Shown: in pieces, positions 11,945 to 23,597 of the stretch | How positions within the stretch are numbered: the stretch's first letter is position 1 | Layout of the letters: every line of letters begins with the position of its first letter | NCBI GenBank assembly: GCA_964199315.1 | Contig: OZ116708.1 | Span: 5,704,001-5,768,000 of the forward strand | Length of the DNA: 64,000 nt | Source: Orbicella franksi | Lineage: Eukaryota | Direction: 5' to 3' | Notes under the pieces: generated by a model | The model's input: the letters and a program-made list of their open reading frames with translations, nothing else | What the model was told of the DNA's origin: nothing | The model's database searches: none | Made by a program: the position numbers and the translations under genes

Positions 11945-14900
11945 GTTTTTTACAATAACAAATCGTCAAAATCTCCGCTTTCTCTCGTTAAAGCATCTTC
12001 ATGTATCTGTCCGCTTATTGATAGTGAAAATTCGACAATGAACACGCGAATTTTTGCAGTTATTGTTAAATTTATGACTGACTGGCATTCATTAAAGCCA
12101 CTACTGAATAGACAAGAACATTACTTTCCATACACAACACTCGTGAGATCGTTCGGGCGTGCCCGAACGCGCGGTACGAAACATGGAAAACATTTAACTC
12201 CGTTGAGCTTCAACTACGTTATGCCCGTTCAAGACTCTTGTATGGTAGCAGACACATTTTTTGGAAGAAAAGGAAAGAAAACCACAGCCCTGTACTCTAA
12301 ACAAGATGATTAAAAAGTCAAAAGTGAAATTCACAGTTATCATTATTCTATCTTTACGTACAGTAAACTTGGAAAATTTGCTTCGCGCAACATTATGCGC
12401 ATCGTTTTCATTCTAGGTGAACATGCTCATAAGGGAAGTGAAATATTTATCTGATATTTTACAGTCTTGGCAAGAAATTTGTTTGACATTCTCAACGAAC
12501 GAAATTTAAACAAAATTACTAGAGTCAACCTCTATGACCTAGGTCACGGTACAGTCGTTCTAAAAATACCTTTCCCTCTACTTCTCCCCATTCTTCTCTC
12601 ATAGCCTATACTTGATCTAAGTCTCCAAGCTTCATCCCAGTTTACATTACACAGTAAACATTCCAAAGCAACGATGGGCGCATACGGAAGAGTTCGTTTT
12701 GTGCTGCTATGCACAGTTTATATTTTAAAGCTATCCAGTTATGACAACATCGTAATGGCTTCTACAATATCTCCTTCGGGTAAGCTGGATTTAGTGGTTC
12801 TCTTAACCATGATCGAGAAGGAATGTGATGTGTCTTCCTGTTTGTATCATGTTATATCAATTTGATTTTCATACCTGTACTCTCTGCAGACTCACGTAAT
12901 AACCCCTACCCGACTTCGAAACAGACTGCAGACTGCCTAGTGCTATGATAGAACAGCACTTTGTTTAACGACAGAAAATTTCTAAACATAGGGGATGAAA
13001 GCGGGATATGGATGGTCCTTTTTCCAGTGTTTTGAATGGCAGAGTCCCGTCGCCAAGGGCGCACCCGTGAGAAAGTTGGATTAAATTATTCAAATTCATC
13101 TCCGGTAATCCTTCTTATATTGCCAAACTCGGAAATATTCATCAAGCACTTTTACGAATTGGTGATTCCTAGCATTTTGCGAAATCGAATATTCATGCCT
13201 GGAAGATACTGATTTTTGGTCGCTTGGAAAGGGGGAATAATGTTATTTATTCAAATCTACGGATATTTCATCTGCTTTTTAATAGAAAACCATAGTTGTA
13301 AACCGCTTTAATCCTATTGTGAGACTACTGTCCCATTGCAGTTTAACATTTCTTTACTCTGCTCAGGAAGCCGGCGAACAGATTTCCGAGCGGCTGTTGT
13401 TTAACAACGGCTTAAACAACAGCCGGAAATCTGTTCGGGTTCGTAGATTGACTAAGTGTTGAATCAGCGACAACAATGGCTCTCTAATGGCTATTCCGAC
13501 AGTGCATTGTTAATAGAAGGAAATGTTTATAGAGCCCAGGCAAAGGAACAAACAAAGATGACAAGATTTATGTTGGAAGGTCCACGACTGTGCATAATCT
13601 TATGCTTTGTTTTCATGAACCGAAACGTTTCTGTTGGTTAGTTCGGATCCCAATCCGAAGTAAACCATAGCCAAAAAAGCGACCAAAAAGTTATCACTTG
13701 TCGGGTTCTATAACCATTCCCCCACCGGCTATTATTAACTTTGAGGAAAGGAATAATTTATGAGAAAAGGAATAATTGAAAAAAATTACCAGACACCTTT
13801 TGACGGCTTGAATCAAGTAAGGTCATTCCAAGACCTCTGGAGTCATTCCAAGTAATTCAGAACATAATAATACATTGAGAGTAGTATAGAACGCTCATAT
13901 GACCGGTAACCAATCGGGAGCCGAGAAAGACAAGAGGCTATTGTTTGGAGAACAATGGACGCTATTGTTTTCCAAATCCAAGATGGCGCTATTTCTTTTA
14001 AGCCAATCAGGAATTTTTAGAGTGGGCGAAACAGAAGGAAAATCAAAGTAATTAAGCATGCAAGAGGTAAAACTACTTATGACGTCATAAGTTTGTCAAA
14101 CTCGATACTTACAGTGTCCTGTGGTCCTAAACGACGAAGGTCCGTCCGGCAAGTGGCCATGATGAAGACCGAGAGACTTGGGTCCGAGTCTAGCCTATAT
14201 AGGGTGGTGCAAAGCATCGTGGGACGATGACCTCATCGATATCCAATCAGAATACTCACAGATGGGCTTCCCCAGTCCCCCTCTGTTAAGGAGAGTATTA
14301 AACCAAACATCACACAATGTCAAATGTCACGAATTTTAATATCAAAACTTTTGCGCTAACCGCAAGCAGCCGGTTTTGCTTAGGCCTAAAGCAGTATTCT
14401 TAAGCTTTTTTAAACTAGCGAACAGGTCTAAATCGCTATTATTTTAAGCAGTTTTAAGCCTGCGTTCAGTTTAAAAATACGGTAAATGCGGCCCAAATTA
14501 TGATATTTCGCAGTCTCAAAGAAATCTAAAAGTATGCGACACTTACACTTACACAAATGGTAAAATTTAGAGTTATTCAAATCAAATAAGTCTCAAAGGA
14601 GCGCTTTTGTTTACTCTATTGTTTAGTTAAACAAAGAACTGTATGCATAATAAATGTATGGGGTTATACGGAAATCTTGCCCAAACACTGCAAATCGCTC
14701 CTAATTCAACAATTATAGTTGTCTAAGCGGGTTTCCAATAGCGTCAAAAATAAATCACTTACTTCAAACATAGTCCTTTCCTCCAAAGCGTCACACAACT
14801 AGCAATCGCTCAACTCCATAGCCACTAAGACAGGAAAGAATGTTACGCTTAGAAAAGAAGACGTGGCTGAACGTTGTCACAAGTAAAATGAATTCTATCA

Positions 14901-15163
14901 AGACCGATTGACTTATAAACGGGTATTCACAAAACAATAAACAATGTCACGTGGTTAACAACCAATGAGAGGACGGGGGATAGGGGGGTACGCGATATCA
15001 CGTGGTTACGAATCAATGAGAAGACGGGGGATAGGGGTTATACCGCACAGTAATTTCATTAAACTGTTATAAGCAAAACAGAGTCTGAGTCTTTACAACG
15101 TTTATTGAATAGTAACTCAAAAGAAAGAATTGATTATAATTTTAACTCTTAAAGCTTGACCGG

Positions 15164-15469
15164 TTACAAAGTGTTGGGAACTAAACTCGTTTCCAGTTTC
15201 TCAGACTCTTGGTCCCTGGCCCCAAAACGCACGATATTCTGCCCTAGTTTTCTTAGCTTTTGGTCATGAAGTCTTTGCCTGATGCGTTCCTCATTCTTGG
15301 CATAATAACTTCTCCAATATTCGTTGATCCGTTCCCTGTTGTTTTTACAGTATTGTCTTCGGTAATTTCTAATGTGCTCTTTGTTCTGTTGACAATAGTC
15401 TCTCTGGCTGCTGGCGAGTCGTTCCTTCTTGTTTTCATACCATCTTTTACGACACCACCACCACCTCAT
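15164..15469 (-). pseudogene. Polinton-arm ORF remnant with Y..N.E.I..Y helical repeats (left copy)
   Basis: KKERLASSQRDYCQQNKEHIRNYRRQYCKNNRERINEYWRSYYAKNEERIRQRL; the N-terminus runs into the satellite. Confidence 0.45.
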
Positions 15470-17350
15470 CCACTACCACCACATTTACCACCACATTTAC
15501 TACCACATTTACCACCACATTTACCACCACATTTACCACCACATTTACCACCACATTTACCACCACCACCACCTACACCGCCACCACCACATCCACCACC
15601 ACCACCGCCGCCACCACCACCACCACCACCACCACCACCACATCCACCACCCCTACCCCACCACCACCATATTCACCACCACCGCCACCACCACCACATC
15701 CACCACTACCTACATCACCACCACATTTACCACCACCACAGCCACATCCACCACCACCTACACCACCACCACATTCACCACCACCACCGCCACATCCACA
15801 ACATTCACCAGCACAGCCAAATCCACCACCGCCTACACCACCACCACCACCGCCACCACCACCACATTCACCACCACCACCACCACCTCATCCACTACCA
15901 CAACATTTACCACCACCACCACCTACACCGCCACCACCACATTTACCACCACCACATCCACCACCACCACATCCACCACCACCACATCCACCACCACCAC
16001 ATCCACCACCACCACATCCACCACCACCACATTTGCCACCACCACCAACAACTAAACCACCACCACATTTACCACCACAGCCACATCCACAACCTACACC
16101 ACCACCACCGCAGCCACCACCACCACATCCCACCTACAACACCACCACCATATTTACCACCACCACCACATCCACCACCACCTACCCCACCACAACCACA
16201 TTCACCACCACCGCCACCACCACCACATCCACCATTACCTACACCACCACCACATTTACCACCACCATAGCCACATCCACCACCACCTACACCACCACCA
16301 CATTCACCACCACCACCGCCACATCCACCACATTCACAACCACAGCCATATCCACCACCACATCCACCACGACTAGGTGGTGGTGGTGGTGGTGGTAGAT
16401 GTGGTGGTGGTGACGGTGGTCAATGTGGTGGTGGTGGTAAATGTGGTGGTGGTGGTGAATGTGGTGGTGGTGGCGGTGGTGGTGGATGTGGTGGTGGTGG
16501 TGTAGGTGGTTGTGGATGTGGTGGTGGTGGTGAATGTGGTGGTGGTGGCGGTGGTGGTGGATGTGGTGGTGGTGGTGTAGGTGGTTGTGGATGTGGTGGT
16601 GGATGTGGCTGTGGTGGTGAATGTGGTGGATGTGAAGGTGGTGGTGAATGTGGTGGTGGTGGTGGATGTGGCTGTGGTGGTGGTGGTGGTGATAGGATGT
16701 GGTGGTGGTGGCTGCGGTGGTGGTGGTGTAGGTGGTGGATGTGGCTGTGGTGGTGAATGTGGTGGATGTGGTGGTGGTGGTAGATATGGTGGTGGCGGTG
16801 GTGGTGGTGTAGGTAGATGTGGTGGTGGTGATAGGATGTGGTGGTGGTGGCTGCGGTGGTGGTGGTGTAGGTGGTGGATGTGGGTGTGGTGATGAATGTG
16901 GTGGATGTGGTGGTGGTGGTAAATATGGTGGTGGCGGTGGTGGTGGCGGCGGCGGCGGCGGTGGTGGTGGTGGTGGTGGCGGTGGTGGTGGCGGTGGTGG
17001 TGGCGGTGGTGGTGGCGGTGGTGGTGGCGGTGGTGGTGGCGGTGGTGGTGGCGGTGGTGGTGGCGGTGGTGGTGGCGGTGGTGGTGGTGTAGGTAGTAGT
17101 GGATGTGGTGGTGGTGGCGGTGGTGGTGAATGTGGTGGTGGTGGTGTAGGTAGTGGTGGATGTGGTGGTGGTGGCGGTAGTGGTGAATATGGTGGTGGTG
17201 GGGTAGGTGGTGGTGGATTTGGTGGTGGTGGTAAATATGGTGATGGTGGTGGTGGATGTGGTGGTGGTAAATGTGGTGGTGGCGGTGTAGGTGGTGGTGG
17301 TGGTAAATGTGGTGGTAAATGTGGTGGTAGTGGATGAGGTGGTGGTGGTG
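15453..17350. repeat. Degenerate (CCA)n then (TGG)n low-complexity satellite
   Basis: CCA-based tract 15453-16370 with variants (CCACAT, CCTACA, CATTTA) switches to a GGT-based tract at 16376-17350. Confidence 0.9.
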
Positions 17351-17639
17351 TCGTAAAAGATGGTATGAAAACAAGAAGGAACGACTCGCCAGCAGCCAGA
17401 GAGCCTATTGTCAACAGAACAAGGAGCACATTAGAAATTACCGAAGACAATACTGTAAAAACAACAGGGAACGGATCAACGAATATTGGAGAAGTTATTA
17501 TGCCAAGAATGAGGAACGCATCAGGCAAAGACTTCATGACCAAAAGCTAAGAAAACTAGGGCAGAATATCGTGCGTTTTGGGGCCAGGGACCAAGAGTCT
17601 GAGAAACTGGAAACGAGTTTAGTTCCCAACACTTTGTAA
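17334..17639 (+). pseudogene. Polinton-arm ORF remnant (right copy)
   Basis: Mirror of 15164-15469 with one amino-acid difference (QRAY vs QRDY), followed by AATAAA near 17697. Confidence 0.45.
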
Positions 17640-20524
17640 CCGGTCAAGCTTTAAGAGTTAAAATTATAATCAATTCTTTCTTTTGAGTTACTATTCAATA
17701 AACGTTGTAAAGACTCAGACTCTGTTTTGCTTATAACAGTTTAATGAAATTACTGTGCGGTATAACCCCTATCCCCCGTCTTCTCATTGATTCGTAACCA
17801 CGTGATATCGCGTACCCCCCTATCCCCCGTCCTCTCATTGGTTGTTAACCACGCGACATTGTTTATTGTTTTGTGAATACCCGTTTATAAGTCAATCGGT
17901 CTTGATAGAATTCATTTTACTTGTGACAACGTTCAGCACACGTCTTCTTTTCTAAGCGTAACATTCTTTCCTGTCTTAGTGGCTATGGAGTTGAGCGATT
18001 GCTAGTTGTGTGACGCTTTGGAGGAAAGGACTATGTTTGAAGTAAGTGATTTATTTTTGACGCTATTGGAAACCCGCTTAGACAACTATAATTGTTGAAT
18101 TAGGAGCGATTTGCAGTGTTTGTAAATGAAGTTAAATCTTTACTTCAAGCGCGAAACGTTTCTTTGAAATTCCTTTGATTTTATTCTCAAGGGTTAAGAT
18201 ACAGTCTATCATGATTTCAGCTTCTAAACATGTGCTTTTCGGTTTTAATTTATTCCATGTTTCATCTCTGACTAATTATGTTAATTCTTCAATGGTCGCC
18301 CAAAATGCCTTTTGTTTGTTCAAGATTCCTTTGAATGATGCTTTTCTCAAGAGAACAGTCGAGATCAAGGAGTTTAGATTTTATTGCAAACTGCCATTAG
18401 CAATTCATTTTCACTTGAAGTATTTCAATTGTGTTTTTTTTTTCTTCTCACCTTTTACCCTATAAATTTTTGTCTTCGCTTATTATTCGTTACTCGTCAA
18501 AGATTGCATTTACGCTAGATCAAATTATTTCTGTTCCGTTTCTTTTGATAGTGTTATCTGATTTGAGACACAATGACCAGCTTTCTGTAATTTTAGCGCA
18601 AACGTTTTGGACATTAAAGTTCATTTGAAACATTATGCGATGACGATAGAAACCGGTCTTTTTACTCGATCAACATGGCAATGACGTCATATCTTTTAAT
18701 ATTAGCGCAAAAGTTTTGATATTTAAGTTCGTGACATTTGACATTGTGTGATGTTTGGTTTAATACTCTCCTTAACAGAGGGGGACTGGGGAAGCCCATC
18801 TGTGAGTATTCTGATTGGATATCGATGAGGTCATCGTCCCACGATGCTTTGCACCACCTTATATAGGCTAGACTCGGACCCAAGTCTCTCGGTCTTCATC
18901 ATGGCCACTTGCCGGACGGACCTTCGTCGTTTAGGACCACAGGACACTGTAAGTATCGAGTTTGAAGTTGCATGACAATTTTGCGTGACCCTAGCGTGAC
19001 AAACTTATGACGTCATAAGTAGTTTTACCTCTTGCATGCTTAATTACTTTGATTTTCCTTCTGTTTCGCCCACTCCAAAAATTCCTGATTGGCTTAAAAG
19101 AAATAGCGCCATCTTGGATTTGGAAAACAATAGCGTCCATTGTTCTCCAAACAATAGCCTATTGTGTTTATCGGCTCCCGATTGGTTACCGGTCATATGA
19201 GCGTCCTATACTACTATTGAGGTCTTAATATCTCTTGTGTAAGCAGCAGATAAGATTTGGTGGTCTGCGGAGCGCAGCCAAACAACTTTCAAATACGGAA
19301 CATAAAAATAACGTTGAACAAAGTTGACTTCGAAAATACCCAAATATCCAAGGAAGTTTTAGCATCGAATAAAGTCCCCAGGCAATTTTCAGACTAACTT
19401 GTGTTTAATCACAACTTAAAGTTCAAAGTTCTCTTGAACAACTATTGAATTCGGTTTTTCGTAATATCCACAATAATCATAATTTTGGTAAGTGATATCA
19501 GACTCAGAAGCCTTTAGCTTCGGGTGATAGCACTTATATAGTCTTGATTACTCTGGATATCATACTGACCTACGTAGCTAGCGGGATTTCGCGCGCGAGT
19601 GCTTTTGTTTTGGCGGCAAGTCGTGGGGGGCTTAGTGAGGAGCACGGTATCGGCCTAGTGTAAACGTATCTAAACGCAGTATAACACAACTAGACGCCGT
19701 GACAACGTCTAACTCGTTTAGAAAATGTATAAGTTTTACCAAGAGTTGGGGAAAAACCTTAGGCCATCGTTGAGTATATACTTTTTTATGTTTTCAACAG
19801 AAACTTGGACATTTCAACGCGAGCGGTTTCTGATAACATTTACTTCAAGTATTTTCACTGTCCAAACATTTCCCATTTTCTTTCTTCCCTGTATAACAAA
19901 ATACCTCGCGTGTCTGAACTTCCGATTATATCTAATCCTGTAATATTAAGGTTCTTTTTATCCTTTATTTGTTTCAAATTTGTTTCAATTCGAAGTATTA
20001 TGTTTGCAGAGGGTGTCTCGTGTTGAAAAGGTGTTATTTATTAGCTTCCATTCTTTTGATTCTTATGTCGCGGCTGCCACTCATTTTATCATTACTTAAC
20101 CACCGTCAATACAAAAGACAAAGGATGCGTTCCTTTGGCATGATTCGGATCACAATCACTGATAGAAAATTACTCGGAGTATCTTTTCTTTTTAGTCAAC
20201 GTGATAATGGAAGCAAAGTCTCTTACAAAATGAAAATCAAACCAAAAGAATTCCAGGTAGTCGTGACCGCCGAGAACTGCCGTTTTAATTTGAATATTGT
20301 ATTTTTTTTTTTAGGGGACGGGGGGGGGGGGGGGGAGGAAGGTGCTCCTTTTTCGCCGCTCGTTTTATGAGCTAAGGAATAAGGTGGACTGCCTGTAATC
20401 TAAGTAGTTACGGCGGAAAACCCGAGCGTTATGATATAAGATTTTCATAATAAGAAATAAGATTTTCAATTATTTATTCTTTTAATGCCAGAAGTCTTGT
20501 TTTTTTCAATCGCACATTTTTTAG

Positions 20525-20839: not shown

Positions 20840-22163
20840 GTAAGTAACAATTATGAGTGAATGGTTACAACTGCGGTAAGTTCAAGTGCCCAATTCTGTC
20901 GACTAGTTTCTACCGAGAAAAGGGAAAATGTGATTTGTACATTTAGATTTGACGAAAGGATAATTTTATTCACAATCCGACTAATCTGCGATCAAGTGAG
21001 TTTTTTTTTCCAAGCTTCCCTTTACAGTCCGCTCGAAAAACTACGCCTGAGACATTCCCTTTGGAAAATGTCTACCACTTTGACTGACTGGCATTGATTA
21101 GCATGGCCACTAATAGCCAATGAACACTACTTCTGGCACAATTAATACACTACAATCGTGAGATCGTTCGTGAGTGTACGCGAGGTACAAAGCATGTTTC
21201 ATCACCAAATACTGGGAGGTGGAAGTTTTGCGGCAAATTCAGCATACATTTGATATTTGAACGTTTACAAAGAAACGGAGGAAGCTTTTAACTCTGTAGA
21301 ACGTCGACTTTCTTATGCACCGTTCAAGAATGTTCCACGGAAGCAGACCCAATTTTTTCGAAAGAAAAGGAAAAGAAAACCACTGCCGTGTTCTCTAAAC
21401 AAAATGATTAAAATGACAAAAGTGAAATGCACGCGTATCATTATTCTTATTTGTACAGAAGCGAGAGTTAAGTAGCTAGCCCTAACTAGCTAAATAGGAC
21501 TGCTCAGATTTAAAAGGAAACATTTTTTTGTGTGCAGTAAACTTGGAAAATTTGCCTCACACAAAATCATGCGTATCATTTTCATTTTGGGGCAACATGC
21601 TCATAAGAAGGGTGAAATATCTGTTTAACATTTTACATTCTTTTCACGTAATTTACATGACATTCTCAACGAAAGAAAGGTAATATTACTGGAGTTCATT
21701 GCCCGCCAGATTTCTTTTGATAAAGTCAGGATTCAAGCCAAGAGTGTATCGTGTTGTGAAGAGGCTCGATCCTACCCGGACGAAACATTTATAAGTTAAT
21801 TTGCATATTTACTTCGGCACATAAAATTTCTTTTAAAGCATTAAAACGCGCTTTGTCAAATTGGATATAGTAAAATTTCCTCATAGTGAGTCACTTGATT
21901 CCGATAGCGCCAACCCCGGTCCCAGGCATAATCCGGGACTTTGATGCGAGGTTGGCTCTGTAAACTGAGTGTAAAAATTACAAAAATCTGAGTGACGCAG
22001 ACCGTGCTCAACGAAACGTATTGAACAATGCCAGCAATCCAAGATAAGCACTTTTGTCATTTTCACTCATGACTCAGTTTGTTCTTTTTATTTGTCACTA
22101 CTGTTCGTTAAGAAATGCAGTTTTGTCGTCTACTGTAGTCAACTGATGTGTGCTTACTTACAG

Positions 22164-22562
22164 TGGATGGGTGTAACAATTACACAATCCTGAGTGAAGC
22201 AGACCGCGCTCAAGGACAAATAGTTATCAGCAAATATAGATGCGATAGGGATGACCTGGTACCAGGTTGGTATCGTTTCCAAGGAGCTGCCGGAAATCAG
22301 ATGGCGGGCAAATGTGTTCTCACGAATTACTGCGGTACTCGGCATCCAGGATGGCTCTATGGCACACACCCGACAGTTGCTGAAGGTGTGGTCACTCGTA
22401 AAGTCTGTTATCATTACTGGGATTATTACTGGTACGGGTCAAGCAACTGCTGTTACTGGAGTAACAACATAAGAGTCAGGAACTGTGGGGCTTTCTTCGT
22501 GTATGAGTTACAAAAGCCGCCTCGTTGCGATCTTCGTTACTGTGGTAACGCCAGTGGTGCAG
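22164..22562 (+). CDS. UMOD/GP2/OIT3-like D8C (D10C) exon D1, long-loop type
   Basis: CTTACAG| acceptor; GCNNYT...GWYRFQG...CGTRHPGWLYGTHP...CC...NCG..FVYEL..C..RYC; G|GTAAGT donor; 399 nt. Confidence 0.9.
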
Positions 22563-23412
22563 GTAAGTTGCCTTGTTTGCTTTTTTGAGTGTGTCCGTCA
22601 ACAATCAATTATCAAGCAATCATCATCATCAATCATCAAACAAAGTTTAAAAACATTCTCCAGAGGTATTTCAGTGCCATCTTAACTTTTCGAGTGTAAG
22701 ACGGCTCTGAACGTCTCTGGATGACAATAAAGCTGTATCTTATTAGTTTGATTACAACTCGTATTGGTATTACGTAACATGTGTCTAGAGAAACTTCCAT
22801 GTTAAGTAATTCTTAGCGTATTTGTAGAAATATCAGAATCACTTCTATCCTCTAGTTCTTTATCATGAACAACAAACATATATCTGCCTTGATTTTTACG
22901 ACGAAAAAAGGCACTTTTCCCTTTTTTTCACTCTCTTAACCCCAGCAGCGGTTTTCATGACGATTTGGCCCAAAACTTAGCTTTCTCGAAAGAGAGCGAA
23001 AAGCGTTTCTGTACCATGCTCTCAATTGTCGTTGTATTGAGACAATAATGACCAAATGCAAATTAATAAACTCCGACACCGAAAAACACACTAGAATAAC
23101 TTGCTGGGTTAAATTCAAATCCCTAGAGCTTAGCGTGTTTGCTTTAGAGATTCGGGAAAGTCTGCGTGCAAACATGGTGGCCCATCAGGCCGACGTTCAT
23201 CTCCGGTTTATTAGACTACAATTGTTTATAGATCTTTTTTTTAGATAAGAATACTTGTGGGCAGCACGCAGCAACAACTAATGATCTTATACAACTGAGT
23301 TCATTAATCGACCGGTTTCGTCTGCAAGTGAGACTTCGTCAAGATTAAACTTTAAGATACAAAGATGGAACTTAGTTTATACTAAATATTGGCGGTACAA
23401 AGTACGCTCCTA

Positions 23413-23421
23413 CATGTTCTC

Positions 23422-23455
<34 letters not shown>

Positions 23456-23597
23456 AGTTTGGGAGAACTCGAAAAAGCTGTGGAAACACTGCGACTCGTG
23501 TTCCCACAACATTTCTCGTTCTACACTCTTTCTCCCAAACTTCCACTGGTATTTCTATAACTCGATAGAAACACGGTATATGTTTTCTATTTCTTAA
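23413..23597. repeat. Short palindromic (hairpin) interspersed element
   Basis: CCGTGTTTCTATCGAGTTATAGAAA ... TTTCTATAACTCGATAGAAACACGG inverted arms. Confidence 0.65.

What the first reader, a model, noticed from the sequence alone, without database searches (positions are those of the whole stretch)
13880..19215. Copy-back-like defective Polinton: intact termini and TSD around a 3.4-kb fold-back instead of genes
Seen: the layout is TIR-L, 0.32-kb unique, arm, inverted arm, 0.58-kb unique, TIR-R, flanked by a perfect ATTGAG TSD. The inner arms differ by only a few SNPs, fewer than the TIRs. Decayed coding-like sequence on the minus strand of the right unique segment runs into the arm, suggesting the right side is native and the left arm is an inverted copy. 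Known: Polintons are thought to replicate by protein-primed strand displacement, and linear DNA viruses generate snap-back defective genomes by template switching. Inference: a defective-interfering-like Polinton derivative, possibly mobilised in trans by an autonomous partner.
Basis: partly seen in the sequence, partly recalled or inferred. Interest (0 to 1): 0.7.

Follow-up and report, generated by a model that had tools for sequence, protein, structure and literature searches.

The report
Mirror-ended, gene-less coral Polinton derivative
A 5.3-kb insertion in an animal (likely coral) genome has the ends of a virus-like Polinton transposon but no genes; both halves are the same end of a large gene-poor Polinton family, likely duplicated by copy-back during replication and likely inserted with a helper element's enzymes.

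Summary
The layout is real: AGTAGT…ACTACT ends, ATTGAG duplication, 0.48-kb TIRs, 0.82-kb inner arms. The ends match POLB- and integrase-bearing Polintons in the same genome.

The nested reading is wrong. In sister copies, TIR + 'right unique' segment + arm form one continuous ~2-kb TIR. The 'left unique' segment is the 3' tip of a Merlin transposon that replaced 578 bp of that TIR. The central 1.9 kb is two GGT/ACC arrays that are not mirror images.

A fold-back exists at whole-element scale. Typical copies carry the array at one end and an ATPase core inside; this copy has the array end twice and no core. Its central junction is unique, so it was not amplified.

Copy-back support is family-wide. 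Arms differ 0.17% within copies against 3.7% between copies. A sibling palindromic lineage occupies 7 loci. One copy carries a chromosomal transposon in both arms. A second Polinton family has ~8-kb arms holding POLB twice. Copy-back during replication is inferred; in-place conversion is not excluded.

This scan noted palindromic Maverick-ended elements in two other genomes. New variant of a known kind.

The parts
13874..13879 (+). left copy of 6-bp target-site duplication ATTGAG
13880..14359 (+). outer part of left TIR, begins AGTAGT; shared with full-length POLB/integrase Polintons of this genome (82-94% in pieces); lacks 34 nt present on the right
14354..14359 (+). CGCTAA microhomology shared by the Polinton TIR and the Merlin element at the deletion joint
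14360..14681 (+). 3'-terminal 322 nt of a ~2.1-kb Merlin (ISXO2/IS1595-like DDE) transposon, replacing the 578-nt segment that the family has here
   Evidence: PF12762, E 5e-17 and 2.7e-16 in two full copies; 8-bp duplications
14682..15500 (+). left arm = inner part of the family's long TIR plus the first ~60 nt of the array; holds two 43-nt repeats (14944-15037) and, on the minus strand, the truncated C-terminal part of a K/R/Y-rich ORF (15164-15472)
15441..16372 (+). ACC-rich low-complexity array, of the kind that lies upstream of the ATPase in typical family copies
16365..16382 (+). central joint CACCACGACTAGGTGGTG where the two arrays meet head to head; single match in the genome; CTAG absent from the arrays of the 18 other copies examined
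16376..17362 (-). GGT-rich array (the same kind of array, opposite strand); not a mirror image of the left one beyond its outer edge
17303..18122 (-). right arm, inverted copy of the left arm; 17653-18232 also matches (71%) the region upstream of POLB in a full-length copy
18123..18701 (-). normal middle segment of the family's long TIR, present at both ends of most sister copies; lost from the left end here
   Evidence: loose ends
18702..19215 (-). outer part of right TIR, ends ACTACT
19216..19221 (+). right copy of target-site duplication ATTGAG

Best explanation
This is a gene-less member of a multicopy Polinton-derived family with ~2-kb TIRs, in which the array-bearing end is present twice and the ATPase core is missing; it likely arose by a template switch inside the GGT array during protein-primed replication, was likely inserted by a helper Polinton's integrase, and was likely damaged afterwards by a Merlin insertion plus deletion in the left TIR. 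Shown: Polinton ends and 6-bp duplication; the long family TIR; two identical end types; no core; the Merlin tip with microhomology; arm pairs far more alike within than between copies. Inferred: (1) a displaced strand or two co-replicating molecules switched template in the low-complexity array, joining two array ends head to head; (2) the two arms were made identical from the terminus to ~15500 in the last replication round; (3) POLB and integrase came in trans; (4) after insertion a Merlin landed at the arm's outer edge, a deletion at CGCTAA removed 578 nt of TIR and most of the Merlin, and point changes and array slippage accumulated. The copy is a dead-end singleton; siblings with other fold points were re-inserted several times.
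For: Ends shared with four 19-25-kb copies carrying POLB (PF03175, E 8e-40 and 9e-25 in two) and integrase (PF00665, E 6.5e-15 and 1.4e-13 in two). Typical 6-7-kb copies run 2-kb TIR / array / ATPase / acidic ORF / K-R-Y-rich ORF / 2-kb TIR, with no POLB or integrase ORF seen. 27 of 30 two-ended copies have perfect, mutually different 6-bp duplications. 600-nt arm: median 0.17% within a copy (10 copies) vs 3.70% between copies (396 pairs); the two arms group together in 10 of 10 copies. Of 27 arm-array joins only the window and one C6 copy have two facing each other, and the C6 copy keeps its core. A palindromic sibling lineage shares one hairpin centre at 7 loci, four with distinct perfect duplications. 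L036 has a 1163-bp high-copy transposon at the same site in both arms, with 1 difference in 3362 paired nt. Insertions stay one-sided in L037, L068, L092, the C744 copy and the window, so arm copying is episodic. A second family has 8.2-kb arms 99.8% alike with POLB sequence in both and perfect duplications.
Against: The window's own junction is unique, so nothing shows that this molecule replicated as a fold-back. Its arrays are no more alike than arrays of related copies. The outer 500 nt are more diverged than the inner arm in 17 of 25 copies (p=0.004; both CpG and non-CpG sites), which repair from the terminus inward does not predict and in-place conversion might. No undamaged helper of this family was found: the 4 close POLB copies have shortened or interrupted frames, and the 79 other POLB matches are 66-74% identical. 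Ten of those were inspected and share at most ~45 terminal nt. No read spans the element.
Confidence: 0.66

Rival explanations
1. The duplicated end and matched arms arose in the chromosome: a break in an integrated copy was repaired from its own other end or from a sister copy, extending the TIR, as proposed for Galileo, with no replication intermediate involved.
For: Marzo et al. 2013 (PMC3573991, Discussion read) describe TIR extension by non-allelic repair and note inverted-repeat expansion in Polintons. The window junction is unique. Inner arms are more alike than outer TIRs family-wide. Best matches change along the right half, a mosaic pattern. The symmetric insertion in L036 could be in-place conversion.
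Against: The sibling palindromic centre occurs at 7 loci with different duplications, so those fold-backs existed before insertion. Five one-sided insertions persist against one two-sided. Nine of the window's 11 arm/TIR differences are one arm departing from the allele nearly all other copies carry, so the arms drift rather than stay converted.
Confidence: 0.24
2. One reading: short intact TIRs, two native unique segments, and an inner 3.4-kb snap-back whose right side is native; a family of such 5.3-kb elements mobilised in trans.
For: The dot-plot layout is as described; inner arms differ less than outer TIRs.
Against: The right segment belongs to the family TIR. The left segment is Merlin DNA. 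The centre is not a mirror. No second copy exists. The outer-versus-inner difference is a family-wide trend.
Confidence: 0.03
3. Assembly or library artefact (chimeric fold-back reads).
For: No spanning read was available; only short contigs were laid, on the left part.
Against: Perfect flanking duplication; arms carry private differences; 27 of 30 copies have perfect distinct duplications; a 110-nt contig of run X11 covers 13850-13959 with 1 mismatch (30 nt of flank, one short of the tool's bar for a bridge).
Confidence: 0.04

Closest known systems
Polintons/Mavericks (polintoviruses), including those of stony corals (PMC8097293, PMC11131425; passages seen)
   Same: (AGT)2//(ACT)2 ends, 6-bp duplication, TIR shared with POLB + integrase copies in the same genome
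   Different: 5.3 kb against 12.7-24.6 kb; no genes; family TIR ~2 kb (paired length 0.4-3.4 kb across copies) against 46-1447 bp reported for intact vertebrate elements. The coral survey required hallmark genes and long loops between TIRs, so such copies fell outside it.
Non-autonomous or gene-depleted Polintons (Polinton-1N1_DR named in PMC9341505, one passage, 'N' read as non-autonomous from recall; polB-less and 2-kb-TIR butterfly Polintons in bioRxiv 10.1101/2025.02.07.637071, section 12 read; pPolB+TIR without integrase in C. elegans, PMC11414722, passages)
   Same: deletion derivatives keeping the ends; TIRs of ~2 kb that have taken in internal sequence
   Different: here a graded series of fold points down to near-complete palindromes, with arm pairs reset copy by copy; the butterfly 2-kb TIRs hold capsid and protease genes and flank full-length elements
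Galileo/Foldback long-TIR transposons (PMC3573991, abstract and Discussion read)
   Same: TIR extension by recruiting internal sequence, two-TIR gene-less copies, chimeric copies, repeat arrays in the arms
   Different: Galileo is a cut-and-paste P-element relative with no polymerase of its own; the ends here are Polinton ends
Copy-back/snap-back defective viral genomes; adenovirus genomes with a duplicated end formed between inverted repeats (recalled; Lieber et al. 1999 seen only as a reference line in PMC3185507)
   Same: one end present twice, interior lost, needs helper functions
   Different: integrated and inherited; packaging and interference not shown; replication-time origin inferred only
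Merlin (ISXO2/IS1595-like) DNA transposons
   Same: the left 'unique' 322 nt is the end of a 2.1-kb element with PF12762 and 8-bp duplications (superfamily name from recall)
   Different: only a remnant here, unrelated to the Polinton

Membership tests
Polinton/Maverick | 5'-(AGT)2...(ACT)2-3' end motif | tested here: met
   motif described in PMC8097293
Polinton/Maverick | 6-bp target-site duplication | tested here: met
   ATTGAG on both sides; 27 of 30 family copies
Polinton/Maverick | TIR shared with POLB + integrase elements | tested here: met
   C1, C6, C8 and C9 copies
Polinton/Maverick (autonomous) | protein-primed POLB and retrovirus-like integrase genes, capsid module, 12-25 kb | tested here: not met
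   outside the arrays no ORF over 109 aa; two segment ORFs scanned gave no Pfam hit; 5.3 kb
Non-autonomous Polinton derivative | ends kept, mobility genes lost, family copies at many sites with distinct duplications | tested here: met
   this particular structure is single-copy
Copy-back/snap-back defective genome | both ends derive from one end and the interior is lost | tested here: met
   arm-array join on both sides, no ATPase core
Copy-back/snap-back defective genome | formed during replication, before integration | tested here: inconclusive
   supported for a sibling lineage; window junction unique and arrays not mirrored
Defective-interfering element | replicated or packaged by a helper and interferes with it | not testable with these tools
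   no undamaged same-family helper found; no assay possible
Merlin/ISXO2 transposon (14360-14681 only) | DDE_Tnp_IS1595 domain, short TIR, 8-bp duplication in full copies | tested here: met
   (full copies L130, L131); the window holds only the 3' tip

The most novel reading that the evidence does not exclude
Coral Polintons breed a population of copy-back satellites: integrated copies are excised, replicated by a helper's polymerase with one arm copied onto the other (even carrying along a host transposon that had landed in one arm), and re-integrated in trans. The series runs from 2-kb-TIR ATPase carriers through near-complete palindromes to 18-kb elements holding only the polymerase twice. 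That would be a genomic record of the Polinton excision-replication-reintegration cycle and of defective-interfering genomes in a Polinton.
Probability: 0.4. Interest if true: 0.7.

Novelty: new variant of a known kind. Interest (0 to 1): 0.45.

Why it matters
The Polinton replication cycle is a model built by analogy with adenovirus (recalled; the original paper was not held). Families whose arms are reset copy by copy, with mapped fold points and passenger insertions, let that model be tested from genomes and long reads. Gene-based surveys of coral polintoviruses miss these copies, so Polinton-derived DNA is likely undercounted. The window copy itself is a decayed singleton; the value lies in the family.

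Tried and rejected
Nested fold-back inside short TIRs: rejected. Arrays as a mirror image: rejected. Further copies of the 5.3-kb structure: none with up to 1 mismatch at the centre. Right segment as a decayed gene: no homologue beyond its own copies among ORFs of 22 Polinton stretches. The K/R/Y-rich family ORF had no Pfam hit and only weak unnamed viral look-alikes in the Atlas (score 0.90, recognition 1849).

An undamaged same-family helper: terminal-motif search (64 matches) and POLB searches (74 of 391 and 83 of 284 candidates scored) found only damaged close relatives; unscored candidates remain. CpG decay as the cause of the outer-TIR excess: not sufficient, the excess is about 1.5-fold at both site classes.

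Presence/absence: only contigs were laid, on 12600-15400. A run-X11 contig crosses the left junction at about half the flank depth (31 vs 67), and a run-X4 contig runs on for 68 unlike letters after 13856. These are hints only, and the source of the assembly may be among the runs. No listed contig bridges the Merlin joints (2388 pieces not shown), so that is open. The right junction and the empty allele were not examined in reads. The flanks have no paralogous empty site among loci held.

Literature: searches listed no paper on copy-back or palindromic Polintons. In one search none of the 20 listed (of 214) contained 'polinton'. PMC1450207, PMC5898198 and PMC112965 were not held. No supplements were read; Repbase entries or supplements may already hold such families.
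Full report
OBSERVATION. The element spans 13880-19215, starts AGTAGT, ends ACTACT and is flanked by ATTGAG on both sides. The outer repeats (13880-14359 / 18702-19215) differ at 8 of 480 columns plus a 34-nt gap. The inner arms (14682-~15500 / ~17303-18122) differ at 3 positions and one 1-nt indel. The centre is not a mirror: an ACC-rich array meets a GGT-rich array at CTAG. They share 24.5% of 24-mers, against a median 14.8% and 90th percentile 31.2% between different copies (190 pairs). Outside the arrays no ORF exceeds 109 aa. The host is likely a coral: public runs labelled coral metagenome hold the stretch.

POLINTON IDENTITY. The TIR has 98 matches in the own genome (40 of 177 candidates scored). 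A terminal motif gave 64 matches. Four 19-25-kb copies (C1, C6, C8, C9) share the ends and carry POLB, and integrase, ATPase and capsid-like ORFs were seen among them. Pfam gave PF03175 at E 8e-40 and 9e-25 and PF00665 at E 6.5e-15 and 1.4e-13; the ATPase match was under the cut-off; the capsid labels are my recall and had no Pfam hit. Their own TIRs are about 0.3-0.8 kb. All four POLB frames are shortened or interrupted. The other 79 POLB matches are 66-74% identical; ten inspected have AGTAGT ends but share at most ~45 nt with ours. So a helper is needed and none of this family was found undamaged.

THE FAMILY. In 11 of 18 sister elements first fetched, the 'right unique' segment lies between outer TIR and arm at both ends; the 'left unique' segment occurs in none. 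Contigs from other runs that leave the window sequence at 14360 or 14682 continue into that same segment (loose ends). Typical copies are 6-7 kb: ~2-kb TIR, array, packaging-ATPase-like ORF (Pox_A32 E 9e-4, under cut-off), acidic ORF, K/R/Y-rich ORF, ~2-kb TIR. Of about 55 family loci fetched I mapped both ends in 30, window included; 27 have perfect, different 6-bp duplications. Left out were one-ended or unresolved copies and the locally duplicated L045/L046. These elements lack POLB and integrase, so they were inserted in trans (inference).

WHAT IS SPECIAL HERE. The array normally sits at one end only. The window has the arm-array join on both sides and no core. Of 27 matches to that join (the control pattern gave 10, so some are chance), only one other pair faces inward, and that copy keeps its core. 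The central joint occurs once in the genome. The left 322 nt are the 3' end of a 2.1-kb transposon with PF12762 and 8-bp duplications. It ends exactly at 14681 and joins the Polinton TIR at a shared CGCTAA. The nested look therefore comes from a one-sided insertion plus deletion. Neither arm is native: on the native side the K/R/Y-rich ORF continues into the core, while here both arms are cut at the array.

ARM COPYING. Over a 600-nt arm segment (29 arms of at least 520 nt from 22 loci tested), the two arms of a copy differ by a median 0.17% (10 copies, maximum 2.0%), and arms of different copies by 3.70% (396 pairs, minimum 1.15%). The arms group together in all 10 copies. A sibling lineage with a shared hairpin centre occurs at 7 loci; four have distinct perfect duplications, one has unresolved ends and two lie in a locally duplicated region. 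L036 carries a 1163-bp high-copy transposon in both arms with 1 difference in 3362 paired nt, whereas insertions are one-sided in L037, L068, L092, the C744 copy and the window. An unrelated family has two ~18-kb copies with ~8.2-kb arms, POLB sequence in both and perfect duplications.

AGAINST THE REPLICATION READING. This copy was not amplified and its arrays are not mirrored. The outer 500 nt are more diverged than the inner arm in 17 of 25 copies (p=0.004), at CpG and non-CpG sites alike. Nine of the window's 11 differences are one arm departing from the family allele, one is a family polymorphism and one could not be scored, which fits drift after insertion. Reads were contigs on the left part only and give hints, not proof.

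MECHANISM. Most likely (0.66): a template switch in the array during protein-primed strand-displacement replication joined two array ends; the arms were equalised; a helper integrase inserted the product; Merlin damage followed. The replication model and the adenovirus end-duplication parallel are recalled, since the papers were not held. Main rival (0.24): the same structure made in the chromosome by repair between repeats, as argued for Galileo (PMC3573991, Discussion).

KNOWN VERSUS NEW. Intact vertebrate Mavericks are 12.7-24.6 kb with TIRs of 46-1447 bp (PMC8097293, passages). The coral survey needed hallmark genes and long loops and has no occurrence of 'defective' or 'autonomous' (PMC11131425, passages). 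Butterfly Polintons with ~2-kb gene-bearing TIRs and polB-less derivatives are described (bioRxiv 10.1101/2025.02.07.637071, section 12). Polinton-1N1_DR is named in PMC9341505 (one passage). PMC11414722 reports POLB plus TIR without integrase (passages). PMC6431247, PMC5499653 and PMC3185507 were seen as passages and added nothing specific. Searches listed no study of copy-back or palindromic Polintons; subscription papers, Repbase and supplements were not seen. Two unchecked notes of this scan describe palindromic Maverick-ended elements in other genomes; none exists for this genome.

VERDICT. Real feature; non-autonomous Polinton derivative, not an autonomous Polinton; works like a copy-back defective genome, with that origin inferred and interference untested. 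New variant of a known kind, interest 0.45.

Noticed in passing
G000:C7:22255557-22274239 and G000:C4:14529459-14547735 (L115-L120): A second Polinton family (ends AGTAGTGGTATGGGC, 63 end matches) has two ~18-kb copies with ~8.2-kb arms 99.7-99.8% alike, POLB sequence in both arms, perfect 6-bp duplications, and no integrase- or capsid-sized ORF between.
   Followed up: partly
L036:2117-3279 and its mirror (G000:C12:17994816-17998623): A 1163-bp high-copy TIR transposon (38 further loci at 98-99% among 40 scored of 1318 candidates) sits at the same site in both arms of one family copy.
   Followed up: partly
L035, L036, L041, L045, L122, L124, L133: Palindromic sibling lineage with GGT array / short hairpin / ACC array at the centre; L133 keeps 851 nt of the ATPase core in both arms.
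   Followed up: yes
L063-L065, L070, L075, L121, L125: A subfamily whose 2-kb TIR carries a ~230-aa ORF with a weak RING-finger match (PF13639, E 0.013, under cut-off) at both ends in place of the middle segment.
   Followed up: partly
L086-L087 and L097/L113-L114: Two full-length copies have the family's arm at the left end (93-94%) and a diverged inverted copy (76-82%) upstream of POLB: an internal inverted repeat that could seed end duplication.
   Followed up: partly
window 21400-27500, 32260-33070, 46700-51750; ORFs 24849-25400, 32599-33072, 50348-50866: The element sits in a duplicated region with several uromodulin-like D8C exons (PF23283, E ~1e-19) and many 75-90% repeats.
   Followed up: no
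G000 genome-wide: At least 83 POLB loci, many with 1350-1390-aa open frames, so the genome is rich in young Polintons of several families.
   Followed up: partly
L033/L034 and L098/L099: Family ends enclose or adjoin a large unrelated cargo with a helicase-like ORF (weak Parvo_NS1 match, E 0.021) and other long ORFs.
   Followed up: no
L134:7063-8493: A 1431-bp near-perfect palindrome (99%) flanked by TA runs, unrelated to the Polinton parts.
   Followed up: no
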